Positions 1 to 29,157 of a DNA stretch of 31,764 nucleotides are shown in pieces. The DNA is taken from positions 1 to 31,764 of the forward strand of contig JAHILQ010000287.1 in NCBI GenBank assembly GCA_018896985.1, read 5' to 3'. Position 1 is the first letter of the stretch. Each line of letters starts with the position of its first letter. The notes beneath the pieces are model-generated. The model saw only the letters and a program-made list of their open reading frames with translations. It was not told where the DNA came from and ran no database searches. Made by a program: the position numbers and the translations under genes. This DNA comes from Nitrospinota bacterium (lineage in GTDB: Bacteria; Nitrospirota; Thermodesulfovibrionia; Thermodesulfovibrionales; UBA1546).

Positions 1-539
1 TCAAAGAAGGAGGACTGGCTGAGTTCTGCTATCCTTCTTGCTCTGTCTAAGGCATTCTGGCGGAGTTCCTGTCGTACGTCATCTGTAAGATTCGGAATCC
101 TTTCATAATCCTCGACAGTTCGAGAATACGTCTCGAAAAAACTTGTGATAACTGATTCAACGATGGCGTTGAGTTTCCCGGTCAAGGTGACAAGTGTCGT
201 TGTCACAAAGGCAGAACCTCTGATTTTCAAATCGGCCTTGTGGGTGTCAACATAGACAACGATGCAAGACGCCAACCCGTCAATAAGTTCTCTCCTGGCA
301 CGGACTGCGCTTGCTTTGGCATCCTCAATTGTCCTTTTCAGTTCCCGAGCACCGGGGGATGTTATTAAATCAAACAAAGCCGGCTCCGGTCCGAAGCCTG
401 CACTTTTCACCTGATCAATCTTGGCAAGAAGTTCCTCGACTGTGAAACTCATCTGCTGTGTTTGTGCAGGAAGGTGACTTTTTGTTGTAACGCTCCCCGT
501 ATTACCCGTTGTTGGCAGGTTAAAATTTGTTTTAGACAT
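1..539 (-). CDS. Hypothetical, mostly helical protein (>=179 aa, runs off the left edge); second gene of the putative sigma54 target operon
   Basis: Not in the ORF track. Manual translation MSKTNFNLPTTGNTGSVTTKSHLPAQTQQMSFTVEELLAKIDQVK...RARRIAELSQSSFF has no stop to position 1. ATG at 539 overlaps the upstream stop (ATGTCTAA) and has AAGGAGG 9 nt upstream. Confidence 0.8.
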   Translation of the reverse strand, partial: MSKTNFNLPTTGNTGSVTTKSHLPAQTQQMSFTVEELLAKIDQVKSAGFGPEPALFDLITSPGARELKRTIEDAKASAVRARRELIDGLASCIVVYVDTHKADLKIRGSAFVTTTLVTLTGKLNAIVESVITSFFETYSRTVEDYERIPNLTDDVRQELRQNALDRARRIAELSQSSFF

Positions 540-1692
540 GGCTCATTTCCTCCTTTACTGTTAGTTGCTGGTTTAATAAGTTATTAAGCTCATTGAGCAT
601 GTAGCTCTTTGAGTTCTCCTCTAACTTGCTCAATGCGATCTGCTCCTGAAGTCCCTTTACTTCGTTTATTATTTGTCTGATAAGCGAGGTATGAAGATTC
701 AGGGCGTCGTTTTCATTAAGGATCTTTTTGGAAGCCTTGAGAGCCGAAAGATAGGCATCCAAAGAAGGAACCAATAACTTTACATAATTGAAGTGCATGT
801 TTTCAGGAAGTGAGGCGGCATTGCGGAGATGTTCTTTCAAGTCAAATGATGAAAGCACTCCGGCATCTGCATTTGAATTTTTCGGCAATATGAAAGCGAC
901 CCCTAAAATACTTATTGGGAAAAGACTGACAAAAGCGGCTGCAAATCCGCCTTTGTAGGTGAAAACCTCTTTTACAATAAACTCGAGCTCCGATTTGTAT
1001 TTCAAACCCTTGTTTTCATCTTTGATGTAGGCTTCCAACTCACTTTGCTTCTTTTTAAGGTCATCATCAAGCACTCTCTTTTGCTTAATTAAATCATCTA
1101 TCTCTCGCTCACGTTTCTCGCGGAATCTTTCTTTGTTCTGTATCTCTACTCTTATGGGTTCTTTGTTTACAGAAATTTTCTCTTTACTCATCCGAGCCAA
1201 CCATTTGTCAATAGCGATGTCATTGCTGTCCCTGTCACGCCTGATTTTGTTTAATTCAGCAGAAACTGTTGCGGCTTGTTCTTTTAGCCCTGATACCGTA
1301 TTTCTCAGAGACTCAACAGATTCAGTTCTTGCGATGTCAACTGTATTTTTCATGGTCTGAAAATCTTTAATTCGGATGTCATAATATACGGATGTAACAG
1401 CAAATGCCTGACATGCTAAAAAGATGATGAGAATGAGATACCTATTAATATGATGCTTCATCGCCCAGAACGAACAGGCAAGTTGAATGCTGGCGAATTC
1501 AAAACAGACTAAAAAAACCGGAAGCATAAAGTTGTGAGCGTCCCCGAGAGGAATCATCAGCATCAGAGTTTCCGTTGACGACGGACTCGCAATGCTTTTG
1601 AGGAAGTTCACAGCAAACGGCAAAACTACAGCAGTATAAGAGACTGTAAAAACCGCTCTCCAGAAAAAATTGCTTAGCTTTCCTAATTGCAT
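532..1692 (-). CDS. Membrane protein: about 3 N-terminal TM helices, long coiled coil, further TM helix, helical tail (DUF4407-like architecture)
   Basis: ORF track 532..1743; start moved to ATG 1692 (MQLGKL), which has GGAGGAGG upstream. Hydrophobic segments AVFTVSYTAVVLPFAVNFL, FMLPVFLVCFEFASIQLACSFWAM, YLILIIFLACQAFAVTSVYY and GGFAAAFVSLFPISILGVAFIL flank a K/E/R-rich heptad region. The family name is an architectural guess. Confidence 0.7.
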   Translation of the reverse strand: MQLGKLSNFFWRAVFTVSYTAVVLPFAVNFLKSIASPSSTETLMLMIPLGDAHNFMLPVFLVCFEFASIQLACSFWAMKHHINRYLILIIFLACQAFAVTSVYYDIRIKDFQTMKNTVDIARTESVESLRNTVSGLKEQAATVSAELNKIRRDRDSNDIAIDKWLARMSKEKISVNKEPIRVEIQNKERFREKREREIDDLIKQKRVLDDDLKKKQSELEAYIKDENKGLKYKSELEFIVKEVFTYKGGFAAAFVSLFPISILGVAFILPKNSNADAGVLSSFDLKEHLRNAASLPENMHFNYVKLLVPSLDAYLSALKASKKILNENDALNLHTSLIRQIINEVKGLQEQIALSKLEENSKSYMLNELNNLLNQQLTVKEEMSHV

Positions 1693-1731
1693 ATTCCCTC
1701 CTCCTTTCTTTTTTGCCTTTACGCTACATAT

Positions 1732-1747
1732 AGAAAGAAACATGCCA
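1732..1747 (-). promoter_or_regulatory. Putative sigma54 (-24/-12) promoter of the 1692 operon
   Basis: Minus strand TGGCATGTTTCTTTCT against consensus TGGCACG-N4-TTGCW: -24 GG exact, T instead of G at -13. Predicted +1 near 1721, about 29 nt before the ATG, with the RBS in between. Confidence 0.65.
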
Positions 1748-1761
1748 GTATCTGGGCAATA

Positions 1762-1786
1762 AAAAACCCTGAAAAATTCAGGGTTT
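1762..1786 (-). terminator. Inverted repeat after the response regulator: possible intrinsic terminator and/or DNA-bending protein site
   Basis: AAAACCCTGAA-AAA-TTCAGGGTTTT, a perfect 11-bp stem; on the minus strand it ends in a T run. Confidence 0.5.
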
Positions 1787-1810
1787 TCATTTTCACTCCG
1801 TTTTTAAAAT

Positions 1811-1843
1811 TCTAAAAAATAGATTTTGTATCTAAATTATAGA
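1811..1843. promoter_or_regulatory. Tandem palindromic upstream activator sites (TCTA-N5-TAGA x2)
   Basis: TCTAAAAAATAGA (1811-1823) and TCTAAATTATAGA (1831-1843), centred about -96 and -116 from the predicted sigma54 start; the same pair recurs at 8457-8490. Confidence 0.7.
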
Positions 1844-1860
1844 AAGGCAACAAAAAGATG

Positions 1861-3384
1861 TTACTTGTTATTCAAGCCATACTCTTTTATTTTGTTATAG
1901 ACGTTTGCTCTACTAACTTCTGAGGTCTTGGCGACTTTGTCAACATTCCAATTATTTTGCTCAAGCAGGTATCTAAGATGTGCTTTCTCTACATCCTTAT
2001 AGGAACATTGTCCTTTGAATTCTACCATTGATATAATTGATTCTTGAGACAACCATTGCTTAAGATCGTCAGCAGTAATCTTATCTCCAGATGACAAAAC
2101 TACAAATCTTTCTATTATATTTTCAAGTTCTCTTACATTTCCGGGCCAGTCATAATTTGTAAGTGCATTTAAAGCATCAGATGCGATGGAGATAGATTTC
2201 AGGTTTTCTTTATTATATTTATCCAGAAAGTGATTCACAAGCAGAGGGATGTCTTCTCTTCTTTCCCTCAAAGGCGGCAGAAATATTGGGACTACATTTA
2301 AGCGGTAATAAAGGTCTTCTCTGAATCTCCCTGCCTTTATTTCTTCCTGTAAATTCTTATTTGTAGCAGCAATAATACGAACATCAATCTTTATAGGTTT
2401 ATTGCTACCAAGTCTCTCGAATTCCTTTTCCTGTAAGACACGAAGAACCTTAGCTTGAGTGGAAGGACTCATATCTCCTGCCTCGTCAAGGAAAATTGTT
2501 CCGTTTTTAGCATACTCAAATTTACCTATTCTTTCTTTTGCAGCACCTGTGAATGCACCTTTCTCATGACCAAAGAGTTCAGACTCAAGGAGTCCTTCAG
2601 GTATAGAGGCGCAGTTGAATTTTATAAACGGCCCCTTTGCCCTCGGGCTCATATAATGTATCGCCTTTGCAATAAGCTCCTTGCCTGTTCCGCTTTCCCC
2701 GCGCAAAAGCACATTTGCTTTTGAAGGCGCCACGCTGTGAACAGCCCCGAAGACCTCCTGCATCCTGTCTGACTGCCCTATGATGTTTTCTTGACCTTTC
2801 AATTCGTTCTTTTTAGGTTCTATTATTTTCAAGATAGCCTCAAATGTCTTGGAGTACAGTTCGTCTCTTGTTTCTTTCTCATGTTCCTCCTGCCACTTTG
2901 CTAAGGCTTCAGCTTGTATAGGAACTTCACTTTGTGGATAAGGTTTTTCTAGAAAGAAATAATCTTTGTTCTCATCCCATTGAAATTCATTTATGTCTCC
3001 ATTCCTGTAAGGCTTTATATGTTCATTATCATTATAATATGTAACAAGCAGAATGGTTACACACTCCTTAAGATATTTATCCCTGTTTACCTCATCTATT
3101 AACCAAAGACCCCCAAAAAGTTCAGCAAACGCTTCATTGCCATCACAATACGGCGGCATATACGCATCAGCGATAACAAGGAGGTGATAATCGTTTGTTT
3201 TCACATATTCTTTTATGTATTGTAAAGCAGTCTCGGCATCCTCACATTCCTCTACAGAATCCCATGTATTTTTTAATAGGTAATGCCCTTCTTGAGGGTC
3301 GCTCAGATACTCCTTATAGAGCTGTCGCTGTTTTGCATCATCATCAACAATCAAAAGTCCAAACTTTTTTGTATGCTTTTTCAC
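1861..3384 (-). CDS. Sigma54-dependent response regulator (NtrC family: REC + AAA+ + Fis-type HTH)
   Basis: REC residues LIVDDD, IADAYMP, LVT, EKP; Walker A GESGTGKE; GAFTGA loop; Walker B IFLDE; [10 protein letters not shown]; [10 protein letters not shown]; C-terminal [21 protein letters not shown] start with AAAGGAGG. Confidence 0.95.
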
Positions 3385-3386
3385 TT

Positions 3387-6300
3387 CTATTCCTCCTTTG
3401 GCACAGGCAGTTTAATAATGAACGCAGCACCTGCCCCATTTTCACTTTTGAAAATCTCAAATTCGCCTCTATAGTGGTTTACTATTTGTTGAATTATATT
3501 GAGCCCGATTCCTGTCCCTGTTCTTTGCTTGGAATTTATCATCAAATCTTTTACTTTATAACCGCTTGGCATACCAATACCATTATCAGAAAATAGAATC
3601 TCATAATTTTTCCCTTCTTTATGGAGGGAGATTTTAATTTCAGGCTTAAAGGTAGTATGGCGTAGTTTTTCATCTATTGCCTTATAAGCATTTGAAAGGA
3701 GGTTTCTAATAATATACTCTATATGCTCACGGTAACCCCTGAAAAGAAATATCTTATCCTTTTCAACCTCAAAAGTGGTATTTACCTGCAAATTTCTAAT
3801 TGGGATATGCCTGTATTCCACAACAGTATCTGCTATAGCTTTTATAGCTTTGTCAAGAGAAAAAACCTCCTCTTCTTTCTCTGTTTCTGAGTAACGAAAA
3901 CTTCTTAGAAAAAAGAACCTGTTTCTGAATGTCTCTTTGATATTGCGAATTTTTATTCTCATTTCATCATGAGTAAGTTTAGGATTGATAAGCTTTGGAA
4001 GTTCATGAGGCTCTTTCAGAAATAGGTTAAACTTATTCTTTGCCTTGGATAATAAAGTCCCTACTTGAGAGAGCAAGTGGCTTACAATCTTTTCCTGAAT
4101 ATTCAATTCTTCCAGTCTAATGTCCCTTTCTATATATTTGTAAACTTCACTAATCCTGGCAGGCGGCAATGGATAGCAGCTTTCAAGAAAATTCAGAATA
4201 TCGTTAAATTTAAAAGGCTCTAAAAATCTCTCTTTTCTCTCAAAGGGGATCCCTATGCTAAACCCATCGGCATGAGATTTAAAAGATACCTTTACACCCT
4301 TGTTATATAGTTCAGGATATTTTTTCTGAAAAATACCTTTAATATCTGAAATTATTATCGCCCGCTCCTCTTGTGAATCTTGAAATTCTGCAATAACTGA
4401 TAAGGAAACAATCTGTCTATCATGTTCCGCAATAAGTTTATACAATCCGCTGATGCCTGATTTCTTAGGAGTATCAATAATTTCAAAAATGAAATCATCA
4501 ACTTTTTTCCATGCAGTTTGTGAGACATAAACATCTTTAATCTCTGGTATATTTGCGATTAAGGTGATATTTTCGCCAAGGCGATTAAGATAAGTTCTTT
4601 GTTTCTCTCTGAGTATCCCGTAGATATCTACTGTCTCAGTGAAAGAAAATGAGATGTCATCCAATTTATCCTTAAGGTATGGAAGTTTTTGCTTTATTAA
4701 AGGAGCAGTTTGAAAAACACTATCAGACTTTTCTTCATCCAATGCCCAGACCAAATCCTCTAACTCTCTGATTTCAATGTAAGTTTTATCTCCCAAGAAC
4801 TCCAAATATGAAAGCATCTCCGAGCCTAAAAATTCCGATAAATATTCCACAGCATCCCCCTGTGCTTTCCTTTTTTTATAGGCTGGCATCAAGATTAGTT
4901 CAACAGCTTCTTTTATAAGGGTCTGCAACTCTCCCAAGCTGGCTGATTGGTAGCATCTGAAGATTATATGCTTCATTAAATACTGGCAGATAGTCTTTCG
5001 GATACCTTTACTTTGATTTTCTGAGAAGACATTTTTAAATTTATCCACAATGTGTTGCGAAAAAATGTTTTCGCCTTTGGCTATTTCAACAATTTCTTTC
5101 GCTATAAAAGAATGGGTAAAAGTGTCTAAATGTTCAATTAATTGACTTTTGCCTGAAAGTATTTTTGCAATCGTATCATCATAGTGTTTTGCCCAGAGAT
5201 AAAGAAGCTCTTTTATAACCTTGCAATCAATGTCTTTATGACTTATGTGGGACTTAGAACCAATATCTGATTTTAAAATGCCTATAAGACATTGTTTAGC
5301 TTTATAAATGTATCCATTTGTCAGAGGCTCCAGAAGATAGGATTTTGCAAGCCCATAGAGTGTGAATCTATTATCAGGCTGTTGATTAAGAATGGACTCA
5401 TAGCACTTAGTTGCCTTTTGCTTTATTTCTGCCTTTTCAGGTTCTGTTAATGTTGACTCCTTTGCCCATTCACGATAGGTTGCACCTATCTGGTCTAATG
5501 CATCTACTCTGCCATTAGAGGCTTTATAAGATCTTTCAAAATATTCAATTGCCTTAAGGAACTCCTTTTTACGCTTGAAGATTTTTCCCAGAAGAAAGAG
5601 TGCATGCGAGTCCTCCCCTTCAATTCTAATTATCCTATTTGCAACTTTTTCAGCATCATCAAATCTGTTCTCTGCAAAAAATATATTAGCTTCTGTCTGG
5701 AGATAGACCCTGTCATTTTGGAGGTTATACTTTCTACATCTTAATAACCTTCGGACATACCCATGGGCCCTTGAATAATAGCCATTCGTTGAATAATGAT
5801 TAGCAAGATAGTGCATCTCATACCGGAAGGTGTATATAGCTTCCTGAATTTTCTCTTCCTTATCTACATCAATTTCTTCTGTAAAGATTTCATCAGGGAT
5901 TGCCTTTTCTATAAAGTCTTCCATCTCTTTAACACAATTTAATTTAATGTGATAATGGCGATATAATCTTTTTCCACTGATAAGCTCCGCAATGGCTCTG
6001 AGATTCCTTAATCTTAAGTAAGGTTCAAGAGAGTCTAATGCATTGATTTTCTGTCGTGTCTTTATAGCTGAATCATATTGCTTCAGGTTTTCATAGATTT
6101 TGGCTGACTTCTCATAATAGTCATAGCTTTCAGGTTTATAAACGCTCTTAGGTAAGAACTTAAATGCCTTATTTGCATGTTGTTCGTCCTGTATACTAAT
6201 ATAGCGGGTTACAATTTCTGTAGCCAGATCAGGAGATGGAGATTTTTCGTATTGGCTTTCAAGTTCACTAACCCTTTCAATTAAAAATTGAGTTGGGACT

Positions 6301-8351
6301 ATCCCTGTATTTTTTCCAATTCTATCGTATATTTCAGTTTGCTCGGGTTTAATTCTAAGAGAGTTGTAATAGGCATCAATAGCAGGGCCTTTATCTTTAA
6401 GCTTCCAGTATAAATCCCCTAACCACTTATAATGTCCATCGGATTTTTCATCGCCTACTATCTCTATCATTTTCTTGACGAGTTCTACAGATTTACTATA
6501 CTGTTCTTTCAATTCGTGCCATTTTGCTATTCTCTGTAGAGATGAAAGTGCTGTAGGATCTATAGCAAGCGCCTTCTCATAATACTCAAATGCGGTAGAA
6601 TCATTATTTAGGGATAGATAACAATCACCTAACCGGCAATAATCCCACACCAATTTCGTTGATAGTTCTATCTTCTTTCCTAACCATTTAATAGCCTCCT
6701 GATAATCTTCAGACTCTTCTTTTAACATCAAAAGCGATATGAGGTGATCAAGTGATCTCAAGCTATCGGGCTGCCGTTCTGTAACAATGTATCTAAAGAT
6801 TTTAATTGCCTCTTCAACATTGCCCTTTTCTTCGTATAGAATTCCGAGACGGAAATATTGAAAGTCCAAATCCCCTAATCTAATCTCAATCATCTTTTTC
6901 TGCCATTCAATGGTGTCTTCATAATAGCCATGTTTTCTGTGGAGGTGAATGAGTTTGTCGTAGGCAGCAGGGTCGCTTTTACTAATCTTCAGGCATTCCA
7001 GATACCACACCTTAGCGCTCAAAAACTCTCCCATCGCATCATGAACATTGCCAAGACCTAAAGCAGCCTGATATTTTTTGGTGTCTGATTTCTCAAAAAG
7101 AATCTCATATTCCTTAATTGCAGATTTATAGTCGCTGCGGAAAAAGTAACATTCGGCTAATCGTTCAACATCCCAATCAAGGTATTTTTTATTAGTATAA
7201 ACCACATCTCCAAGAGCCTTAAAAAGTTCAATGCCTCTTTGATAATCCTCAGATGATGGCTGCTTTTTCTCTCTTTTAAGATTCCCCCTCAAATGATAAG
7301 CATCTGCAAGTGAACTATAAAATTTCGGTCCATTCCTGTCCTGTGGTTTGGTGTTTTTGATTGCTTCTTCACCCAGTAAAATGGCTTTTTCTATATATGC
7401 TTCATAATTCTCATAGTATTTCTTCGCATCATCAAGCAAGTGAAGATTCTGTTCTTTCGCAGCATTGAGGTCGTTCGCCATATCATAAAAGTTAGTAAAA
7501 TTATTGATGTCAGCTTCGCCTCTTTTTATAGATAGAATTTCAGAACACTTTATCCTTAGCAGTGTGCATTCATTTGAGAGTTCAGTCTCTCCCCTTTTTT
7601 TGCGGAATTCTTTGCTAGCGTTTGCCATGGATTTCCTTATTACTCCGTCGAAATATCCTGCATCAGCTTTGATTTGTTTGTCCTTAACCAATTGCCTCAT
7701 TCCATCTAACAAGCTATCTATCAAATCTCTTAAACGGAATAAAATCTCTGCATTATCCATGATTCTTGAGGCTAAATGTTGTGCATCGTTTCCAGTTAAA
7801 ATTTTAAGTTGTTCATAAATAACTTTAATTTCTATCGTTTTGAGTTGCTGGTCAATTATTTCCTTGTAATTGGCATTTTCCGTAAGAGCTTGAAAAACAA
7901 AGGCTGCCCTTTCTACTGGATTTTTAAATTGTTTCTCAGCGAGATGGCGATAGAAGTTACCAATTTTTTCTATAATAACTGGTGTATCCGTAGAAAAATG
8001 CAATGCCATTTTTATACATTCATCTGCTTTTTCGGGGTGTTCTATGTGTTCATAAAAATAAGCTGTATGTATTAGAATATAGTTTTTATCTGCGGCATTT
8101 TGCTGAAGGAGAGATTCAAAAATCGTAAGTCCTATTCCAAGAGATGAAACCTCACGGGTAGACTCAAATGTCCTCATAAAAAATCTTCTAATAGATTTTA
8201 AGAAGTCAAACTCATTATTCTCATACCACCGATTTTTTCTATATTCTTTATGCCAGGATTGAAATTTAGCGAAAGTTTCAGGCGGCAGTCTTTCTTCCAG
8301 AATTTTCTCTATATTCGGGAAACTCATATATTTATTTGGATAGTCAGCCAT
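3387..8351 (-). CDS. Very large soluble TPR-repeat protein with C-terminal HATPase_c (histidine-kinase-like) domain
   Basis: ORF track 3387..8366 (GTG); ATG 8351 fits the predicted +1 better. Many TPR-type helices (e.g. [26 protein letters not shown]). N box [11 protein letters not shown]1 DNGIGM, G2 GTGIGL, terminal GAAFIIKLP. No TM segment seen; the H box is unclear. Confidence 0.85.
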
Positions 8352-8378
8352 AAATAAAGTCACCACATTAATATATTA

Positions 8379-8394
8379 AGCAAATCTAATGCCA
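8379..8394 (-). promoter_or_regulatory. Sigma54 (-24/-12) promoter of the TPR-kinase/response-regulator operon
   Basis: Minus strand TGGCATTAGATTTGCT has both GG and GC at the correct spacing; predicted +1 near 8368. Confidence 0.8.
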
Positions 8395-8456
8395 GCATCC
8401 AGAAATAAAGAACTCTATGAAATATAAGGGTTTTAGATTTATCATTTGTGGAAATT

Positions 8457-8490
8457 TCTAAATATTAGATTTTCTGGTCTAAATTTTAGA
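8457..8490. promoter_or_regulatory. Tandem palindromic upstream activator sites (TCTA-N5-TAGA x2)
   Basis: TCTAAATATTAGA (8457-8469) and TCTAAATTTTAGA (8478-8490), centred about -95 and -116 from the predicted start. Confidence 0.7.
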
Positions 8491-8721
8491 CTTTATTTTT
8501 CTATCTGTAAAAGACCTTACTCAACTCATTTAAGCCTTCTTTAACCCCTATAAACCCACTCAACCATTACCACCAACATCTCCTTTTCCTTCTCAAGTGC
8601 GTGCTTTAAGGCTTTAGCACACATTTTACCGCAGGTCATAACCATAAGGTCTTCGACGAGATAAGTTCCATAGTCCCAAAGTCCAAAAGTGCCATAGAGC
8701 AGAAGTGCAAAATCCGTCTTT

Positions 8722-8868: not shown

Positions 8869-9297
8869 CTACTTATTTTCTGTTTTCAAGTATTTTAATA
8901 TTGCCTCTTCAAAATTCTTAAAATCTCCGATATGCTTTTTAATAATTGTCACTACAATTTCAGTATCAACATCTTCATATCTGTGGACAACAATATTCCT
9001 GAATTTAATCATCTTATCCATAATTGCATATAACTCCGGCTCAATAATATTGTTTTCAAGCAGGACATTAAAAGTGTCGGCATAACTTGTCGGCGGTCTC
9101 ATGTCCTTATCAGAGATGATGTGATGAGCTATGTCTACACATGTCTCTATCATCATCTGTAATGTCCTTTCAATAATTCGCTGAAGTTTCCAATCAGACT
9201 TATACTCCTGAATTGTTATATCAGAAAACTCCTCAATCTGTTTTTGATACGTCTCAAGTTCTGAAATCTTTCTCAGGACAACATTCTTATCAACCAA
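8869..9297 (-). CDS. hepT: HepT-like (DUF86, HEPN) ribonuclease toxin
   Basis: ERTLQMMIETCVDIAHHII, FRNIVVHRY (R-X4-H motif). Start reassigned to TTG 9297 (MVDKNVVLRK), which overlaps the MNT stop and has GGAG 8 nt upstream. Confidence 0.9.
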   Translation of the reverse strand: MVDKNVVLRKISELETYQKQIEEFSDITIQEYKSDWKLQRIIERTLQMMIETCVDIAHHIISDKDMRPPTSYADTFNVLLENNIIEPELYAIMDKMIKFRNIVVHRYEDVDTEIVVTIIKKHIGDFKNFEEAILKYLKTENK

Positions 9298-9712
9298 TTC
9301 CGTATCTCCTTGCAAAAAAGGCGTCTTCTTTGACCTTGAAATCAAAAAATTCCCTTAATGTTACTGATTCGTATATATGACGCCTGAATGGTTCCTTGTC
9401 AATAAGAAGTTTTTTGTTCTGAAGTATTCTGCCGGCAATGCTGAGAGACACGGTATTAAGCATCACAAGGTCAAGTTCTGATGTCCCAAGGGCGTTTGAA
9501 AGCCTGTCAAAAAGCTGGAGCTTATAGCCTGCGAGATTGCCGGTATCTTTCAAGTAGACTGCGATATCTATATCAGAAAGGTCTTTTACCTCTCCTTTGG
9601 TTAAACCGCCAAACAGATATGCAAACACAATATTGTCATCTTGAAGAAGGACATTCTTCAAATTCTGAATTCTTGATAAGATATTTTTGGGCAGCTTTTC
9701 ATACTTTATCAT
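9290..9712 (-). CDS. mntA: MntA-type minimal nucleotidyltransferase antitoxin
   Basis: YLFGGLTKG...SDIDIAV and ELDLVMLN motifs; directly upstream of and overlapping the DUF86 gene. Confidence 0.9.
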   Translation of the reverse strand: MIKYEKLPKNILSRIQNLKNVLLQDDNIVFAYLFGGLTKGEVKDLSDIDIAVYLKDTGNLAGYKLQLFDRLSNALGTSELDLVMLNTVSLSIAGRILQNKKLLIDKEPFRRHIYESVTLREFFDFKVKEDAFFARRYGIG

Positions 9713-13929: not shown

Positions 13930-14649
13930 CTACTTCCCGCCAAAAATTTTCTTGATCAATGGCTTTTTCAGTTCGCTCATGATTTCTTCCATTTTTGTTT
14001 TTATTTCGGCATTCTGAGAAGTTAGCGATTCAATTAGTTTTCTATGTTCCTCATGTGTGTTCTTTAGCCCTTCAATTTCTTTTACCTGAGCATTAAGATT
14101 GTCTTTCGTTGTCTCAATAAGTTTGTGATAGCTGTCTATCTGTTGATTGAGATTTGAGATAAGAGCATTCTGTTTGTATAAAAAGTCTGCAATTCCTTTT
14201 TCAGCTTTTTGCATGCTGCTATCTACATGGTCTTTAATTTGAGATTTAAACGACTCTAACTCATTTAATTTTGATTCTACAAACTGTAGTAATTCTTGTT
14301 TTGTATCAGATAAAAATTTATCAATTTCTTGTTTTCTTAGTTTGACAAAGAAATTTAAGGAATTTGCCTCGTTTGAATATTCCTCAATAAAATTTTTTAC
14401 TTCTTTTTCCGCTTTTATTTTAGAAGATTTTATTTCTTGGGTGACATTTTCTCCTTCAGCTAGTAACTCTTTTAATCTATCTTCAATGGCAGATATTTGT
14501 CCTTTCTTGTTTTGCATATCTGAGAACATTTTCTGAGCATCATCTTTAATCCTTTTTAATGCCTCTAAAGTTGCAATGGATTGCTGGATAAAATTATCAA
14601 AATCTTTGAGTTTTTGCCTGATTTTTTCGGAATCAATAATCTCAGCCAT
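13930..14649 (-). CDS. Soluble coiled-coil protein with basic amphipathic C-terminus
   Basis: 239 aa, heptad-rich with no TM; start overlaps the helicase stop; GAGGGGG upstream; ends KKPLIKKIFGGK. Confidence 0.75.
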   Translation of the reverse strand: MAEIIDSEKIRQKLKDFDNFIQQSIATLEALKRIKDDAQKMFSDMQNKKGQISAIEDRLKELLAEGENVTQEIKSSKIKAEKEVKNFIEEYSNEANSLNFFVKLRKQEIDKFLSDTKQELLQFVESKLNELESFKSQIKDHVDSSMQKAEKGIADFLYKQNALISNLNQQIDSYHKLIETTKDNLNAQVKEIEGLKNTHEEHRKLIESLTSQNAEIKTKMEEIMSELKKPLIKKIFGGK

Positions 14650-17600
14650 AATATGCCCCCTCTATTTGTTGCTTAAGTTCTCCAAATCTCTTTGAATAAG
14701 TAGCTTCAAGTTCATTACATAGAAAGAAAAATCCGAAGCGCTCCTTCATGTCATTCAACTTTTCATCATGGCCAGTTTTCAACAGCTCTCCAGCTTTCCC
14801 ATAAAGCCATTTCATTCCATCATCGTTGTTAAACCTGCCATACTCGTCATCCAAAATAAAAAGCAACTCTCTCTTGAACTCAGCTTCTGAAGACCTGTAG
14901 AGTTCAATTACTATATCCATATGCAAGAATTCATTGGCAGTTCGAATAAGGCGTTTTGTGTTTGCTTCCTTTTCATTCTCTGGTGAAAATTCCCTACAAA
15001 AGTACAATGCCACTAAATTATTTGGAGAGCCTTCGAGGACACCTCTTGATCGATAATAAATTCCTTTTGGATAATTACGGAAAGCATCTCTCAACCTTAC
15101 TAATCTGTAATAGTCAAAATGTCCTGATAATAAGACATCGTTCAACTCTTTTTGCAATTCTATGGCTTCTGCAGTTCCTTTTGGAGGTACCCTTGTATCC
15201 CTCTTAAAATGCAAATCTCCAACACAAACATCACAGAGTTCACATTTATAGTCTTCTTCAAAAGATTTTGGATTTGTATTGAAAAATCGTAATATTACCG
15301 GTCTTCTGCATTCTCTGTCTTTATTCCATATAACATAATGTAGGTTCCATAACATGTCATATCGCATTCTAACGACTTCTTTATAAATGTGGTTAAGAAT
15401 AACCAATAGATAATCAATTATTTTGTGGTAGAACCATTTGTATTCATCATAATGCTGAAGATTTCTCCGATCTATTCTTTTAATAATGTCAGCGTCATAT
15501 TGCTCTTTGCATTTATTAATTCTGCTTGAAATTGTCTCTGGATTTTCAATTTCTGAAACTTCATAGAGACTATTTCTTTTTAAATATTCTATCAATCTAT
15601 CTGTCATGCCCTCTGTATTTAGCTTTAACCTAATTTTATTTTCGGGAGTTGTTTCAGTATAGGGAGTTACTTCAAAAGAAGGTAATCGATGTTTATAAAA
15701 AACAGAAAACTCTTGCACTATACCTAATATTTTCAGCCTGAACAAAGCGAGTTCATCACTCTTAAGTCTTGAATTGGATGATTTAAAAATAATCGTACCA
15801 CCAAAACCTTCAAGAAACGAGCTGATTAATTTATCCAATGTAGTAATTATGCTGGCAACATCTGCCTCAACGCTTGGATAGCTTCTTTTTATGAATACAT
15901 GCTGCTTCCCGTAATCACATAAACTTCCCCTCCCATGAGAACAGTTCCCTCTATTATTACACATGGGAGTTTTAGCCTCATCAATTTTTTCCAGTCTATG
16001 AATGCAATCATCACTCGGTATTTCCGCTAATATCACGCAATGAGCTCTTTCGTTATCCCTACCTGCACGCCCTGCCTCTTGATACCAAGATTCAATTCCT
16101 GAGGCAAAAGATGTATGCAAAATAAACCGTACACTCCCTTTATCTATCCCCATTCCAAAACCTTTTGTAGCAACTAAGATATCAAATTTGCCACTTTTGA
16201 ACTCGTTTTGATTCCTAAAAGTAGCTTTTTGATATTTTGTTGGTCTGTTAGCATCCTGAGTATTTGTCTGGACAAATATGTGATCACAATAGAGACACCT
16301 TTTTCTTCCTCTTGGAATTTCATCTAAGTCGGAATCTTCCCCGATTTCAGAATAATCGTCTTCTTCTACACTTCGGTCACTAATGTATTGATAGCAATTG
16401 CAGTTAGGGCACAGAGTTGGTGATTTTGAGGAAAACGCCCTGACTCTACCGTTTCCGTAATCAGTCAGTTCGTAGTCGTTTTCTCTTTCAAAAAATATTT
16501 CGGGTTCAATAATTTTCTTTGTTTCATACAGATAATGGGAGATACCATCATAGATTGAATATCTGCCATGAGGGTCAGCGTAAATAGAATAAATTATGCC
16601 TACATTCTTTTCATCCCGCATATTAGAAGTGGTAACAACATCGTAAATATCTTTTTTCTTTAAGGATTTTGGGATTGATTTGGTCAAGATTTGTTTGAAC
16701 TTCTCCTGTTTTTCCTTGTGGTCTTTAACGGTTACAATCTGGTAGCTGAAACTTATCCTGTCAAAATCTGTTTCAGAGATTACATTTTCATCTTTAAGAT
16801 TGAGAATATTTACAATATCTCTTCTGACCATTCCGCCTGCAGTTGCCGTAAGCGATATTATTTGCAAATCATCATTCTTTGCCTTTAAGGCTTGAAAAAA
16901 GAATGGAATATTTAAATATGAGGGTCTGAAGTCATGTCCCCATTCTGATATGCAGTGTGCTTCATCAATTATCAAATAGTTGATTTTTCTGAATTCCTGT
17001 ATTTTAATTAAATGTTCCAGAAATTTTTTGATACGAATCCTCTCTGGTGCAACATAAAGCAGTTTAATCTTTCCTAATAAAACATCTGTTACTATTTGCT
17101 CCTGTTCTTCTGGGCTTACATCACTGTTTATAAATTCCATTGAAGATATACCATAATTCTGAAGGGTTGACTTCTGGTCACGCATTAAAGAACGCAAAGG
17201 ACATATCACGATTGAAAGTCCCGGCTTTAATAATGCAGGAAGCCAAAAGCAAAAAGATTTTCCGCTACCTGTTGGAGATATTCCCAATACATCTTTTCCA
17301 CTAAAAATATGTTTAAACACTCTTTCTTGAAATGAATACGTCCCGTCTCTGTATCTGAATATCGAATTAGAATAATAGTTCAGATATTCTTTAATATCTT
17401 CTATCTGCAAATCGTTTCTGAAATTAAAGTCATCTTTTTCGTTTACTGATAATCTCGCCTGCAAATTTGGGTCACTGATTGCTTGTGAATTAATTTCAAT
17501 TTCAGATGCGAGTTCCATATTTGTTATAGAGATTTTGGGGTGCAACTGGTATTCATTATTCAAATCGTGATGAATGATTTTTATGTAGGGCAGATTGAGA

Positions 17601-18502
17601 TCTATATTGAACAATCTCTCAATATCACCAAGAAATCTATACAGGCTGCTTAATGAAAGAGAGGCTAAAGAGAAAGAATAAGAAAGATTGTCCTTTATGA
17701 TAAGTTCACTGTCAATATTTTTTTCAGAGAAAATGTCAGCGATAAAATCCTGAACGAGATAAAAGTTATTAACTAAATCTATTGGATCTAATGCCTCACT
17801 GGCGTCAAAGGATTTCTGCGTCTGTTCAAAAAGGGCAGATTGTTTGTCTTTTAAAAGGTATCTTTTTAGCTCAGCATCTTTTGAAAAAATATCAAATATT
17901 TGCTTCCTTGTTTTTTCAGTGTTATATTTGATGTGTGTATAGCTGAATCTGCAAACCTGCCAGTCTAAGTTAATTATCTCATTCTGACGGAATAAAAAAT
18001 CATCCAGATTGCCTCTGTTTTCAAATTTTCCGAATCCATCAATTTCAAAGACATATTTCTTTTCACCGACTATGGCAAAATCTGCAAAATATTGAGCTAT
18101 CTGTTTTTGGGGTTCAACCTTTAATAAACCGTGCGGGGATAATACAGGCGATAATACTCTCTTTACAAATTCAGCTTCTAAATAATTATTATCATCAATC
18201 GGCTGAAAGTGTGGGTAACATTTAAAATACTCCTGATATTTTCTTTTGTTTTCAGCATTGGAACTGGTTGAATTCAATATCCTTTTGCCGATTGAACGAT
18301 CGAGTGTGAACTTTTCTAAATCAATGTATTTCTCTAAAAGCTTCTTGTATTCTTCAGGCAAAAAAAGTAATTTCAAATCAATAAAACTGCGTGCTTCTTC
18401 ATCACTTGTAATTTTCGATTTTGATGGATTATCGTCAAACTTGTAGACGCCTCTTATCCTGGAAGGTAGGAAATACTTTATTAGACAAGTATTAATCTCC
18501 AT
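14642..18502 (-). CDS. RecQ-family SF2 helicase fused to an N-terminal DUF559/Vsr-like endonuclease domain
   Basis: Nuclease-like QKQIAQYFADFAI..FEIDG..RQNEI..WQVCRFSY. Helicase motifs SPTGSGKS, DEAHCISEWGHDFRPSY, LTATA, ATKGFGMGIDK, YQEAGRAGRD. RQC-type zinc CRR...CELCDVC. Confidence 0.85.
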   Translation of the reverse strand: MEINTCLIKYFLPSRIRGVYKFDDNPSKSKITSDEEARSFIDLKLLFLPEEYKKLLEKYIDLEKFTLDRSIGKRILNSTSSNAENKRKYQEYFKCYPHFQPIDDNNYLEAEFVKRVLSPVLSPHGLLKVEPQKQIAQYFADFAIVGEKKYVFEIDGFGKFENRGNLDDFLFRQNEIINLDWQVCRFSYTHIKYNTEKTRKQIFDIFSKDAELKRYLLKDKQSALFEQTQKSFDASEALDPIDLVNNFYLVQDFIADIFSEKNIDSELIIKDNLSYSFSLASLSLSSLYRFLGDIERLFNIDLNLPYIKIIHHDLNNEYQLHPKISITNMELASEIEINSQAISDPNLQARLSVNEKDDFNFRNDLQIEDIKEYLNYYSNSIFRYRDGTYSFQERVFKHIFSGKDVLGISPTGSGKSFCFWLPALLKPGLSIVICPLRSLMRDQKSTLQNYGISSMEFINSDVSPEEQEQIVTDVLLGKIKLLYVAPERIRIKKFLEHLIKIQEFRKINYLIIDEAHCISEWGHDFRPSYLNIPFFFQALKAKNDDLQIISLTATAGGMVRRDIVNILNLKDENVISETDFDRISFSYQIVTVKDHKEKQEKFKQILTKSIPKSLKKKDIYDVVTTSNMRDEKNVGIIYSIYADPHGRYSIYDGISHYLYETKKIIEPEIFFERENDYELTDYGNGRVRAFSSKSPTLCPNCNCYQYISDRSVEEDDYSEIGEDSDLDEIPRGRKRCLYCDHIFVQTNTQDANRPTKYQKATFRNQNEFKSGKFDILVATKGFGMGIDKGSVRFILHTSFASGIESWYQEAGRAGRDNERAHCVILAEIPSDDCIHRLEKIDEAKTPMCNNRGNCSHGRGSLCDYGKQHVFIKRSYPSVEADVASIITTLDKLISSFLEGFGGTIIFKSSNSRLKSDELALFRLKILGIVQEFSVFYKHRLPSFEVTPYTETTPENKIRLKLNTEGMTDRLIEYLKRNSLYEVSEIENPETISSRINKCKEQYDADIIKRIDRRNLQHYDEYKWFYHKIIDYLLVILNHIYKEVVRMRYDMLWNLHYVIWNKDRECRRPVILRFFNTNPKSFEEDYKCELCDVCVGDLHFKRDTRVPPKGTAEAIELQKELNDVLLSGHFDYYRLVRLRDAFRNYPKGIYYRSRGVLEGSPNNLVALYFCREFSPENEKEANTKRLIRTANEFLHMDIVIELYRSSEAEFKRELLFILDDEYGRFNNDDGMKWLYGKAGELLKTGHDEKLNDMKERFGFFFLCNELEATYSKRFGELKQQIEGAYYG

Positions 18503-19006
18503 TTACTTTTTAATAAATTCCAATCTCTGTTCATTAAAGAATTCAAAAAGGTTTATACATGGGATCTGATAATATCCCGCAATCATCGGAATTTTATTCG
18601 GATTGGTTTTGCTCTCTTGAGTTATGATTATAGCTCCCCTTGAATAAGCTAAAGCAATTAAAAAAGGATCAGCTTCCGGTTCATTGTTTGCCAACTTCTT
18701 TTGGTCAAGGAGTTCGGGATGTTCACGTATAATCTTTTGTCCAGCTTCCCAAATCTCACCATTCACAGGAACAATAAAATGTTTTTTACGTGCTTTTACC
18801 CATTTCTTCAAAAAATCATCCTTCCCCTGATATTTTTCTATTTCTTCTTCAACAAATTTTATGGTAAACATATTTCCTTCTTTAATAAGTTTTTCTATTT
18901 CTTCCCATATCGCTTTAAATGCAGGCTCTTTCTTAGGGTAAAATGTTTTTAAAATAATTAAGGCATCTGTATCAATACAAAATGATTTAATAAAAGGCAG
19001 TTTCAT
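18503..19006 (-). CDS. DUF4411-like PIN-domain protein (putative RNase toxin)
   Basis: CIDTDALI, EVxEE-like FVEEEI, ADPFLIALA, IITQES, KIPMIA..IPCINLFEFF pattern; follows an XRE-ImmA gene. Confidence 0.8.
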   Translation of the reverse strand: MKLPFIKSFCIDTDALIILKTFYPKKEPAFKAIWEEIEKLIKEGNMFTIKFVEEEIEKYQGKDDFLKKWVKARKKHFIVPVNGEIWEAGQKIIREHPELLDQKKLANNEPEADPFLIALAYSRGAIIITQESKTNPNKIPMIAGYYQIPCINLFEFFNEQRLEFIKK

Positions 19007-19012
19007 TATTTG

Positions 19013-20161
19013 TTACTTTGAAAGCATCTCATGAACTTTCGGAATCTGATCGATTTTTACCCCTAAATAATCCGCTGTATCCAAAACACTAATCTTTGTC
19101 TGATCATAAGCTTTAAAAACCATAGATATATATTTTTTGCCCCGTTCTTCTACGCAGGCTTTTACAGGATTCCTCCCGCCTCTGCCGAATGGGTGATACT
19201 CTTTTACATTTTCCTCTCTCCATTTTTTATAGAATTGTCCCGAAGTCCTTCCAAGAGTTAATAGTCGCCTCAAGATAACTTCCCTGCTGACCCTGAATTC
19301 ATCAGCGATTGTTTTTAAGGTCTTATTGTCCCAAACATCTGTCTGCTTATTTTGCTTGACTAACGCATTATTGAGAAGTTTTTCGGATGGAACTAAAAAC
19401 GCCCCGGCAAAATGATTACAAAACTTTTCAATTTGCGGGGAATGAGCATCTTCAACCATGTCACATATACCACTTTCGTTCAGAAGGATGTGTGCCAACT
19501 CATGAAATAATGAAAATATTTTCGAGTTTGCTTCATCAGCTTTATTCACAACGATAGCGGGTAATTCTCCTTCAATAATTGAAAACCCTTTTATTTCACG
19601 CTGCTGAATACTTAGTTGAAAAACAAGGACACCATTATCTTCCAAAATACTTTTCCAGCTTTCAAACGCTTCCTCACTGCTGTTAAAGACCGAAATGTTA
19701 AAATCCCTTGAAAAAACTGCTCCTCTGACCATTTCAGCAATTTTTTCAGGTTTATCAGATAATGTTGTTCTGATAGAAAAAGGTCTTATAGGATTGCCTA
19801 ATTCTTTATTCAATTCTATTGCCGATACCTGCAATCTTCTCGCTTTTCTGATTATCAGTAAAGTTTTAGGCGTTAGAGGTTTATGTTTTACTGATAATTC
19901 CGTCCTGAAATCCATGGGTAATGGTAGTTCCTGCGGAGGTTCTGACAACAGAAATGCTGCTAAAGGTCTCTTATATACAGTAGCTAATTTTTCAATTTGA
20001 ACAAAGGTAGGTTTTACCCGCCCTGCTTCCCATTTAGATACAGTGTCCTCACTTACCTTTAGCCTTTTAGCGACTTCTTCTCTATTTCTGCCTATGCTTT
20101 TTCTTGCCCATATCAGCACTCTCGGCTCTACACTAACAGATAAGGATTTATGAGACATCAT
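19013..20161 (-). CDS. XRE HTH + ImmA/IrrE (peptidase M78) protein
   Basis: N-terminal HTH EEVAKRLKVSEDTVSKWEAG; HExxH in FSLFHELAHIL; EKFCNHFAGAFLVP; FRVSREVILRRL; GAGGAGGA RBS. Confidence 0.9.
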   Translation of the reverse strand: MMSHKSLSVSVEPRVLIWARKSIGRNREEVAKRLKVSEDTVSKWEAGRVKPTFVQIEKLATVYKRPLAAFLLSEPPQELPLPMDFRTELSVKHKPLTPKTLLIIRKARRLQVSAIELNKELGNPIRPFSIRTTLSDKPEKIAEMVRGAVFSRDFNISVFNSSEEAFESWKSILEDNGVLVFQLSIQQREIKGFSIIEGELPAIVVNKADEANSKIFSLFHELAHILLNESGICDMVEDAHSPQIEKFCNHFAGAFLVPSEKLLNNALVKQNKQTDVWDNKTLKTIADEFRVSREVILRRLLTLGRTSGQFYKKWREENVKEYHPFGRGGRNPVKACVEERGKKYISMVFKAYDQTKISVLDTADYLGVKIDQIPKVHEMLSK

Positions 20162-20395: not shown

Positions 20396-20527
20396 TTGCT
20401 TTCCTCCTTTCTTATAAATTTTCAGTTTACAATATTATTACAGGTTTTCATATTGTCCCGCAATAGCCGCAGTTATTTATGTAAGCTAAAGAACTTCTTG
20501 CAGCGCAATCTAATTGCCATATTCGTA

Positions 20528-27363: not shown

Positions 27364-27403
27364 TAGCAACTCCTTCCATTTTCAAATAAAGCTATATTCT
27401 CCA

Positions 27404-27429
27404 TTCCCTTTAAACTTTAGAATTCCTTT
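27404..27429 (+). repeat. 26-bp direct repeat, copy 2 (upstream of the NERD gene)
   Basis: TTCCCTTTAAACTTTAGAATTCCTTT. Confidence 0.8.
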
Positions 27430-27475
27430 ATCTCTCAAAATCTGCAACTGCTGACAAATTTTCGGGCGGATGTGG

Positions 27476-28360: not shown

Positions 28361-28366
28361 ACTGCA

Positions 28367-29143: not shown

Positions 29144-29157
29144 TTTCAACTCCTCAT

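What the first reader, a model, noticed from the sequence alone, without database searches (positions are those of the whole stretch)
1..8490. Candidate novel sigma54 positive-feedback system: giant TPR sensor kinase, enhancer-binding regulator and membrane coiled-coil effector operon
Seen: two co-oriented operons, [TPR-HATPase, REC-AAA-HTH] and [multi-TM coiled-coil, unknown helical protein, ...], each behind the same sigma54 promoter layout. Established: NtrC-family proteins activate sigma54 promoters from palindromic sites about 80-150 bp upstream. Inference: the regulator activates both its own operon and the effector operon, forming a switch triggered by whatever the roughly 1,200-residue cytoplasmic TPR region binds. 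Large TPR arrays act as pattern receptors in Avs-type antiphage proteins, so phage or damage sensing that induces a membrane effector is one hypothesis; a developmental or envelope switch is another. I do not recognise this combination as a named system.
Basis: partly seen in the sequence, partly recalled or inferred. Interest (0 to 1): 0.85.

Follow-up and report, generated by a model that had tools for sequence, protein, structure and literature searches.

The report
Sigma-54 sensor pair driving membrane module
A rare inserted gene island in a groundwater Thermodesulfovibrionales bacterium carries a giant soluble TPR sensor kinase and its sigma-54 activator, which appear to switch on both themselves and a small membrane-protein operon of unknown function; the wiring can be read clearly from the DNA, but the four genes are not a fixed, conserved system.

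Summary
On the minus strand lie a 1,654-aa TM-less TPR/HATPase kinase (8351..3387), a REC-AAA+-HTH sigma-54 activator (3384..1861), a terminator, then a 4-TM coiled-coil protein P3 (1692..532) and its overlapping partner P4 (539..<1). Each unit sits behind a GG-N10-(G/T)C promoter. Each promoter is preceded by two TCTA-N5-TAGA palindromes 20-21 bp apart, and the nearer one is centred 70-71 bp from the GG. Four of the six such palindromes in the 1.85-Mb genome are these. The kinase's only homologue in 5.8 billion proteins (L013) shows the same geometry. Autoregulation plus control of a second operon is therefore well supported by sequence.

The "four-gene system" is not supported. In L013 the same kinase-activator cassette drives a radical-SAM plus peptide operon instead. 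The P3-P4 pair occurs elsewhere behind other activators or none, and distantly next to TIR or HerA-like genes. The locus is an accessory insertion between guaB and ychF, which are adjacent in three of four congeners checked; a fourth has only the MNT-HepT pair between them. P3 and P4 match no Pfam, PADLOC or solved-structure family. The kinase has no STAND NTPase, so it is not Avs-like. The function of P3-P4 stays open. The effector promoter's -12 element is TC, not GC.

The parts
8457..8490 (-). Upstream activator sites of the kinase promoter: two 13-bp palindromes, TCTAAAATTTAGA (8490-8478) and TCTAATATTTAGA (8469-8457), with centres 21 bp apart. The nearer centre lies 70 bp from the promoter GG.
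   Evidence: The same pair stands before the L013 kinase gene.
8379..8394 (-). Sigma-54-type promoter pHK, TGGCAT-N5-TTGCT (1 mismatch to TGGCAC-N5-TTGCW). The predicted transcription start is near 8368. A GGTGA Shine-Dalgarno-like box lies at 8364-8360.
   Evidence: It aligns with the L013 promoter TGGCATTAAACTTGCT.
3387..8351 (-). Giant soluble sensor histidine kinase, 1,654 aa. The N-terminal helical/TPR region spans about 1,030 residues, followed by an unassigned middle region and then a C-terminal kinase core. In ORF numbering from GTG 8366 (subtract 5 for the 1,654-aa protein), the candidate phospho-accepting His is in PHEL at residue 1454, 106 residues before the N-box Asn. N (NLLSNAY), G1 (DNGIGM) and G2 (GTGIGL) boxes are intact.
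1861..3384 (-). Sigma-54 enhancer-binding response regulator, 507 aa. It has a divergent REC domain (DDD 14-16, D73, T115, K147), an AAA+ domain with an intact GAFTGA loop (276-281), and an HTH_8 domain.
1811..1843 (-). Upstream activator sites of the P3 promoter: TCTATAATTTAGA (1843-1831) and TCTATTTTTTAGA (1823-1811), with centres 20 bp apart. The nearer centre lies 71 bp from the promoter GG.
   Evidence: The block is near-identical before the radical-SAM gene of L013.
1763..1787 (-). Intrinsic-terminator hairpin (11 pairs) followed by TTTTTTATT. It ends the kinase-activator transcript and lies between the activator sites and the -24 box of pP3.
1732..1747 (-). Sigma-54-type promoter pP3, TGGCAT-N5-TTTCT. 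The -24 box is canonical, but the -12 dinucleotide is TC instead of GC. It looks like a hybrid: upstream of the -24 box it resembles L013's radical-SAM promoter, and downstream it resembles the P3 promoter of L009.
532..1692 (-). P3, 386 aa. It has three TM segments, a helical hairpin of about 140 residues (predicted periplasmic by the positive-inside rule), a fourth TM, and a conserved C-terminal helical domain of about 110 residues.
1..539 (-). P4, a soluble helical-bundle protein. 179 of its 199 aa are in the window. Its start overlaps the P3 stop by 8 nt.

Best explanation
The region is an accessory island inserted between guaB and ychF. It encodes a positively autoregulated, sigma-54-dependent two-component switch and one target operon.

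Proposed mechanism:
1. The cytoplasmic TPR kinase senses an unknown intracellular ligand or protein (inferred).
2. It autophosphorylates, probably on the conserved His in PHEL, and transfers the phosphate to D73 of the activator (inferred from motifs).
3. The activator binds the paired TCTA-N5-TAGA palindromes about 95 and 116 bp upstream of two sigma-54 promoters (strong sequence evidence).
4. It remodels RNA polymerase-sigma-54 through its GAFTGA-bearing AAA+ ring (established family mechanism).
5. This raises transcription of its own operon and of P3-P4-P5.

P3 is an inner-membrane protein with a long helical hairpin on one face and a conserved domain on the other. P4 is its translationally coupled, always co-occurring soluble partner. 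P5 is a 60-aa hydrophobic peptide.

The P3-P4 pair is a portable module. Evolution has attached it to different activators or to other promoters. The kinase-activator cassette can equally drive a different cargo, a radical-SAM plus peptide operon. So this is a modular sensor-plus-cargo arrangement and not a dedicated four-gene system. What P3-P4 does is not known. An inducible envelope-associated accessory function is the most I can commit to.
For: - Domains and motifs.
- Promoter and activator-site layout: 4 of 6 genome-wide palindromes lie at the two promoters, with 70-71 bp geometry repeated in four promoters of two loci.
- Orthologous cassette L013: the activator is 56% identical overall, with a near-identical HTH region.
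- rpoN is present.
- A terminator separates the two units.
- The junction is confirmed in four runs and in a second MAG.
- Island status: guaB and ychF are 6 nt apart in G001, G008 and G010. Only MNT-HepT lies between them in G003. GC is 35-37% here against 42-45% in the ruvB region.
- P3-P4 co-occur in every locus examined.
- Sigma-54 promoters with canonical GC precede P3 in G006, L009 and L007, each near an activator gene.
Against: - Nothing was measured. No RNA run holds the locus, so transcription starts, RpoN dependence and activator dependence are all inferred.
- The effector promoter lacks the near-invariant -12 G, so it may be weak or differently controlled.
- Pfam detects neither a HisKA/DHp domain nor a REC domain above cut-off (REC 18.7 bits against 30.2).
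- The kinase C-terminal half is only 30-45% identical to its one homologue.
- P3-P4 binding is unsupported by modelling (one search gave no verdict).
- The P3 model is of low confidence outside the hairpin (pLDDT 64).
Confidence: 0.62

Rival explanations
1. Inducible conflict or antiphage module. The TPR kinase detects a phage or mobile-element protein, and the induced P3-P4-P5 complex damages or seals the membrane (abortive infection or exclusion).
For: - The locus is an accessory island at a hotspot, next to an MNT-HepT toxin-antitoxin pair.
- Distant P3-P4 pairs lie next to a TIR protein and SIR2 (L019), next to a HerA/TrwB-like ATPase with a PADLOC mad8 hit (L008), near NACHT-Lon (L010), and near MNT-HepT, MazE-PIN and an integrase fragment (L011).
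- Distribution is patchy and rare: 2 of 301 genomes of the order and 2 of about 185,000 species.
- The P3 sequence is mosaic.
Against: - P3 and P4 have no hit in PADLOC or PHROGs beyond a coiled-coil Rz-like match at E 2.7e-4.
- Other contexts (L021, L023, ECF transporter flanks) are not defence-like.
- Transcriptional induction through a two-component system is slow for defence.
- TPR without a STAND NTPase is not Avs-like.
- Neighbourhood evidence comes from about 10 loci only, with no statistics.
Confidence: 0.15
2. Envelope-stress or envelope-remodelling response of the Psp/Lia type. A sigma-54 activator induces a membrane-anchored scaffold (P3) that recruits a soluble helical protein (P4) to stabilise or reshape the membrane.
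For: - The logic resembles PspF-pspABC: a sigma-54 activator plus small membrane proteins plus a soluble helical effector.
- P4 is a confident all-helical bundle (pLDDT 82). Its best shape matches are lipid- or membrane-associated bundles such as the apolipoprotein E N-terminal domain and a PHA_synth_III_E-annotated cluster, with TM 0.58/0.64 at best.
Against: - P4 has no PspA_IM30 or any other Pfam hit.
- No fold match reaches significance (best Foldseek E 0.14).
- The activator scores below the PspF cut-off (277.8 against 443.55).
- A core stress response would not be an accessory island that is missing from most congeners.
Confidence: 0.13
3. In this genome the wiring is a recombination relic. 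P3-P4-P5 was joined to the cassette by a deletion between two sigma-54 promoters that removed a radical-SAM/peptide operon. The resulting promoter (-12 TC) is weak or dead, so the module is silent or expressed by other means.
For: - pP3 matches L013's radical-SAM promoter up to the -24 box. From TGGCATGTTT onward it matches L009's P3 promoter.
- L007 shows the arrangement activator, sigma-54 promoter, radical SAM, sigma-54 promoter, P3.
- G000 lacks an orthologue of the L013 radical-SAM gene.
Against: - The activator sites, spacing, -24 box and -12 C are all intact.
- P3, P4 and P5 are open and under evident constraint: 92-94% identical to G006, with 1 mismatch in 1.9 kb between strains.
- Sigma-54 promoters with a degenerate -12 element can still function (general knowledge, not tested here).
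Confidence: 0.1

Closest known systems
NtrB-NtrC-type two-component systems with sigma-54 enhancer-binding response regulators (NtrBC, ZraSR, AtoSC) and positive autoregulation
   Same: REC-AAA+(GAFTGA)-HTH_8 architecture. Kinase and regulator are co-transcribed. Tandem palindromic activator sites lie about 100 bp upstream of a GG-N10-GC promoter. The operon has its own sigma-54 promoter.
   Different: The kinase is a 1,654-aa soluble protein with a helical/TPR input of about 1,000 residues and no recognisable HisKA domain. It has a single homologue in 5.8 billion proteins. The REC domain carries large insertions and falls below the Pfam cut-off. The regulator scores below every NCBIfam equivalog cut-off.
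PEP-CTERM/exosortase regulators PrsK (kinase), PrsR (sigma-54 response regulator) and PrsT (TPR protein) (PMC1569441)
   Same: This is the only named combination of a TPR protein, a histidine kinase and a sigma-54 response regulator that I found. The best NCBIfam TPR hit is PrsT, and PrsR and PrsK are also hit.
   Different: All scores are far below cut-off: PrsT 79.6 against 312, PrsK 35 against 300, PrsR 346 against 503. Here the TPR region and the kinase are one soluble polypeptide. I noted no exosortase or PEP-CTERM gene among the window ORFs scanned, but did not search for them specifically.
PspF-pspABCDE phage-shock system
   Same: A sigma-54 activator induces a small operon of membrane proteins plus a soluble helical protein.
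   Different: P4 is not a PspA/IM30 protein and the activator is not PspF-like (it has a REC domain and scores below cut-off). The module is accessory and rare.
Avs/STAND antiviral pattern receptors with TPR sensors
   Same: A long TPR-type array could serve as a protein-recognition surface.
   Different: There is no STAND/NACHT/NB-ARC NTPase and no fused effector domain. The output is a histidine kinase. There is no PADLOC Avs hit.

Membership tests
Bacterial sigma-54 enhancer-binding protein (NtrC family) | AAA+ Sigma54_activat domain above the curated cut-off | tested here: met
   PF00158 scores 248.3 bits against a cut-off of 20.2, and AAA_lid_14 scores 102.5 bits.
Bacterial sigma-54 enhancer-binding protein (NtrC family) | GAFTGA sigma-54-contact loop | tested here: met
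   GAFTGA lies at residues 276-281 and is conserved in L013. It is degenerate in the G006 and L007 neighbours.
Bacterial sigma-54 enhancer-binding protein (NtrC family) | C-terminal Fis-type HTH, and sigma-54 encoded in the genome | tested here: met
   HTH_8 scores 29.6 bits against a cut-off of 22. rpoN (TIGR02395) scores 390.6 bits, over its cut-off.
Bacterial sigma-54 enhancer-binding protein (NtrC family) | Phospho-accepting receiver domain | tested here: inconclusive
   Response_reg scores 18.7 bits against a cut-off of 30.2, and no PDB sequence match was found. DDD14-16, D73, T115 and K147 sit in the expected order and are shared with L013, G006 and L009.
Sigma-54 promoter | GG at -24 and GC at -12, spaced N10 | tested here: met
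   pHK is TGGCATTAGATTTGCT at 8394-8379. The motif is conserved in L013.
Sigma-54 promoter | The same GG/GC spacing for the P3 (effector) promoter | tested here: not met
   pP3 is TGGCATGTTTCTTTCT. GG is present, but -12 reads TC. The orthologous positions in L013, L009, G006 and L007 read GC.
Two-component histidine kinase | HATPase_c catalytic domain with N, G1 and G2 boxes | tested here: met
   PF02518 scores 55.6 bits against a cut-off of 26.4. It aligns to SrrB, KdpD and NtrB catalytic domains. The boxes were located.
Two-component histidine kinase | DHp/HisKA domain with a phospho-accepting His | tested here: inconclusive
   There is no HisKA Pfam hit. In ORF numbering, His1454 (PHEL) is conserved as PHDL in L013 and lies 106 residues before the N-box Asn. 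His1430 (VSH) is also conserved. THDEM is not conserved.
PEP-CTERM PrsK/PrsR/PrsT regulators | Scores above the NCBIfam equivalog cut-offs | tested here: not met
   Scores are 35.1 against 300, 345.9 against 502.6, and 79.6 against 312.2.
Psp system (PspF/PspA) | PspA_IM30 effector and PspF equivalog | tested here: not met
   P3 and P4 have no Pfam or NCBIfam hit. PspF TIGR02974 scores 277.8 against 443.55.
Avs/STAND receptors and other catalogued defence systems | STAND NTPase domain, or any PADLOC model hit for the components | tested here: not met
   No NACHT/NB-ARC domain was found. In PADLOC the kinase gives only a TPR hit at E 3.3e-4, the activator hits only through its AAA+-HTH part (RtcR/PspF models), and P3 and P4 give nothing.

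The most novel reading that the evidence does not exclude
P3-P4 (with P5) is a new family of inducible membrane effectors of inter-genomic conflict. In Thermodesulfovibrionales it is gated at the transcriptional level by sigma-54 activators with interchangeable giant cytoplasmic TPR sensors: a TPR kinase here, and a NusA_N-TPR protein plus an alpha-CTD-like protein in L009. On this reading the TPR array acts as an intracellular pattern receptor that signals through phosphotransfer and not through a STAND NTPase.
Probability: 0.12. Interest if true: 0.8.

Novelty: new variant of a known kind. Interest (0 to 1): 0.45.

Why it matters
The regulatory part gives a complete, directly testable circuit read from sequence alone: sensor, regulator, binding motif, two promoters, and a regulon that appears limited to those two promoters in the assembled genome. 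It comes from an uncultivated groundwater lineage.

The locus also illustrates how sigma-54 wiring can be modular. The same sensor-regulator cassette drives different cargo in two lineages. The same cargo is attached to different activators elsewhere. In this genome the join appears to lie inside the core promoter.

The kinase is close to an orphan architecture. P3-P4 is an uncharacterised family of about 80 representative clusters with no structural or family assignment. If its occasional neighbours (TIR, SIR2, HerA-like) reflect function, it could be a new conflict module. As it stands the biological role is unknown, and the find is of moderate interest.

Tried and rejected
- P3 and P4 gave no informative hit in Pfam, NCBIfam, PHROGs or PADLOC. 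The only hit was a coiled-coil Rz-like match.
- The P4 model (pLDDT 82) was searched against PDB, AFDB clusters and the ESM Atlas. Only generic helical bundles came back, none significant.
- The P3 model is poor (pLDDT 64). Its Atlas matches only reflect the hairpin.
- Profile searches of P3 and P4 against PDB sequences returned coiled-coil noise only.
- The ESM Atlas feature search for P3 pointed to unnamed, partly viral clusters at a recognition level too low to use.
- The predicted P3+P4 complex returned no verdict, so it counts neither for nor against binding.
- The giant TPR protein of L009 is not homologous to this kinase beyond generic TPR similarity. The shared "giant TPR plus activator" look of the two loci is therefore not orthology.
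- The two other genomic TCTA-W5-TAGA sites (C2:6593 and C295:10155) are single and have no sigma-54 motif nearby, so I do not count them as targets.
- No P4 relative was found in IMG/VR viral contigs.
- The search for related loci with the broad P3 alignment failed because no stretch was conserved enough.
- All sequencing runs that hold the locus are DNA, so there is no expression evidence.
- One literature search turned up only the PEP-CTERM PrsKRT combination.

Full report
**What is there.**

All genes in 1-8490 are on the minus strand.
- The 1,654-aa protein (8351..3387) has TPR-class Pfam hits between about residues 400 and 1035 and a C-terminal HATPase_c domain (55.6 bits). It has no hydrophobic segment.
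- Two nucleotides downstream starts a 507-aa protein with Sigma54_activat (248 bits), AAA_lid_14, HTH_8 and a weak receiver hit.
- A hairpin at 1763-1787 followed by a T-run ends this unit.
- P3 follows (1692..532, 386 aa). It starts after AAAGGAGG, not at the ATG inside the promoter that the mechanical ORF list gives.
- P4 follows (539..<1), overlapping P3 by 8 nt.

The window is a whole MAG contig. A near-identical strain (L024, 1 mismatch in 1,936 nt) shows that P4 is 199 aa. There it is followed by a 60-aa hydrophobic ORF (P5, about two membrane spans by inspection) and then convergent guaB.

**The promoters.**

The core sigma-54 motif on its own is not significant in this AT-rich window: 16 matches with up to 2 mismatches against 13.8 expected. 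The architecture is what carries the evidence.
- Each promoter (8394-8379 and 1747-1732) is preceded by two TCTA-N5-TAGA palindromes 20-21 bp apart. The nearer one is centred 70 bp (pHK) or 71 bp (pP3) from the GG.
- In the whole 1.85-Mb assembly the pattern TCTA-W5-TAGA occurs six times. Four of those are these sites. The other two are single sites with no sigma-54 motif nearby.
- rpoN is present.

**Independent support from the only homologue.**

The kinase has one real homologue among 5.8 billion proteins (P0027, locus L013).
- The two kinases are 70-94% identical over the first 900 residues or so, and 30-45% identical after that.
- The adjacent activator is 56% identical overall. Its last 80 residues or so, which include the HTH, are almost identical.
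- L013 has the same paired palindromes at the same distance before its kinase gene and again after its activator gene.
- The four promoter regions align along their length.
- None of the other loci fetched contains the palindrome.

I take this as strong sequence evidence that the activator binds these sites and controls both promoters. That means positive autoregulation plus one target operon.

**Kinase and receiver competence.**

- The N, G1 and G2 boxes are intact, and the catalytic domain aligns to solved kinases.
- Pfam sees no HisKA domain.
- In ORF numbering from GTG 8366, a His in PHEL (residue 1454; PHDL in L013) lies 106 residues before the N-box Asn. That is a typical distance by my knowledge of EnvZ- and HK853-type kinases.
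- A second conserved His (VSH, residue 1430) is 130 residues before the N-box Asn.
- The receiver is divergent and carries insertions, but it keeps DDD14-16, D73, T115 and K147.
- Phosphotransfer is plausible but not shown.

**The four genes are not a unit.**

- In L013 the second promoter (TGGTAT-N5-CTGCA) drives a MoaA-like radical-SAM gene and a 48-aa Cys-rich ORF, followed by a terminator. There is no P3-P4.
- P3 has only 21 relatives in the word-indexed search and 81 representatives in the exhaustive profile search. P4 accompanies it in every locus I could read.

In Thermodesulfovibrionales the fuller form of the core is [64 aa]-P3-P4-[about 65 aa]-[HTH_3]. This window's lineage has only P3-P4-P5. 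Its upstream context varies:

| Locus | Upstream context of P3-P4 |
|---|---|
| G006 | Paralogous activator, 35% identical, degenerate GAFTGA |
| L009 | Alpha-CTD-like ORF, a NusA_N-TPR protein of 1,536 aa that is not homologous to this kinase, and an activator |
| L007 | Activator-like protein and a B12 radical-SAM operon |
| L010 | Divergent NACHT-Lon genes |
| L011/L012 | Divergent ECF transporter genes |

- Canonical sigma-54 promoters precede the module in G006, L009 and L007, but not in L011/L012.
- More distant pairs lie next to a 189-aa ORF and a TIR protein, with SIR2 nearby (L019), next to a HerA/TrwB-like ATPase (L008), next to a P4 paralogue (L021), or in an unremarkable Ignavibacteriaceae neighbourhood (L023).

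**The junction in this genome.**

- pP3 is nearly identical to L013's radical-SAM promoter region from the palindromes to the -24 box.
- From TGGCATGTTT onward it resembles L009's P3 promoter, except that the -12 reads TC instead of GC.
- L007 shows two successive sigma-54 promoters in the order activator, radical SAM, P3.
- G000 has no orthologue of the L013 radical-SAM gene.
- A deletion or recombination between two sigma-54 promoters would explain this. That is inference.
- The junction itself is real. Contigs from four groundwater runs and a second MAG span it.

**Island status.**

- In congeners G001, G008 and G010, guaB and ychF are convergent with a 6-nt gap.
- In G003 only an MNT-HepT pair lies between them.
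- Here the interval holds MNT-HepT plus the kinase, activator, P3, P4 and P5.
- GC is lower than in the flanking core genes.
- P4 was found in 2 of 301 genomes of the order, in 2 of about 185,000 species genomes, and in no IMG/VR contig.

**What P3-P4 might do.**

- P3 has three TM segments, a confident helical hairpin of about 140 residues, a fourth TM and a C-terminal helical domain. The positive-inside rule puts the hairpin outside and the C-terminal domain inside (the topology is inferred).
- The P3 C-terminal domain and P4 are much more conserved than the hairpin, which suggests mosaic evolution.
- P4 folds confidently as a helical bundle but has no significant structural relative.
- No family, defence or phage library recognises either protein.
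- Complex modelling gave no verdict.
- I commit only to an inducible, membrane-anchored two- or three-protein complex. Conflict or defence, envelope stress, and a relic arrangement are listed as rivals.

**Comparison and verdict.**

The regulatory logic is that of NtrBC-type autoregulated sigma-54 two-component systems. Membership of the enhancer-binding protein family is met on all core features. The PrsKRT, PspF/PspA and Avs readings fail their tests.

What is new is the near-orphan giant soluble TPR kinase, the cleanly predicted two-promoter regulon, and the uncharacterised portable P3-P4 cargo. Its circuit inference is supported by sequence. Its idea of a dedicated four-gene system with Avs-like sensing is not supported.

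The scan has no note of this module on other DNA.

Noticed in passing
window 8869-9712 (- strand); L026: An MNT (140 aa) and HepT (158 aa) toxin-antitoxin pair lies directly upstream of the kinase promoter region. In congener G003 the same pair is the only insert between guaB and ychF. This suggests stepwise growth of the island at this hotspot.
   Followed up: partly
window 13930-20161 and 20504-20519 (- strand): There is an operon of HTH-IrrE/M78 peptidase, DUF4411, a 1,286-aa DUF559-nuclease/DEAD-helicase, and a coiled-coil protein. A sigma-54-like motif TGGCAATTAGATTGCG sits just upstream, at 20519-20504. It has no TCTA-N5-TAGA sites, so it is not predicted to belong to this regulon.
   Followed up: no
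L009:1581-7997: A standalone RNA-polymerase alpha-CTD-like ORF (73 aa), a 1,536-aa protein with a NusA N-terminal domain fused to TPRs, and a GAFAGA activator lie upstream of a P3-P4 module. CCTTACA repeats precede its sigma-54 promoter. A similar alpha-CTD-like ORF is in L010.
   Followed up: partly
L013:8446-9680; L007:7210-9426: Sigma-54 promoters directly after activator genes drive radical-SAM enzymes paired with small ORFs: a 48-aa ORF with Cys residues in L013, and a 54-aa ORF in L007. These may be peptide-modification operons under enhancer-binding-protein control.
   Followed up: no
L019:8001-12084 and 15269-16171; L008:2030-7677: Distant P3-P4 pairs are followed by a 189-aa ORF that overlaps a TIR-domain gene, with SIR2_2 and several transposases nearby (L019). 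In L008 they are followed by a 187-aa ORF and a 1,014-aa DUF87/TrwB-like ATPase that hits the PADLOC mad8 and HerA models.
   Followed up: partly
alignment A1 (P3 family): Conservation is mosaic. The last 110 residues or so of P3 are nearly identical among proteins that are only 57-60% identical overall, and P4 is 80-94% identical across the same loci. This suggests recombination or strong constraint on a P3 C-terminus/P4 interface.
   Followed up: partly
window 8483-8511 and 1836-1864 (- strand): Sigma-70-like -35/-10 pairs (TTTACA-17-TAAAAT and GTAACA-17-TATAAT, 10 of 12 matches) have their -10 boxes inside the distal palindrome of each promoter. They could give basal transcription that is modulated by activator binding. 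These are consensus matches only.
   Followed up: no
window 26623-29149 (- strand): A NERD nuclease-related protein, an N6/N4 DNA methylase and a DUF6996/DUF6997 protein lie between core genes. This is probably a restriction-modification-type cluster.
   Followed up: no
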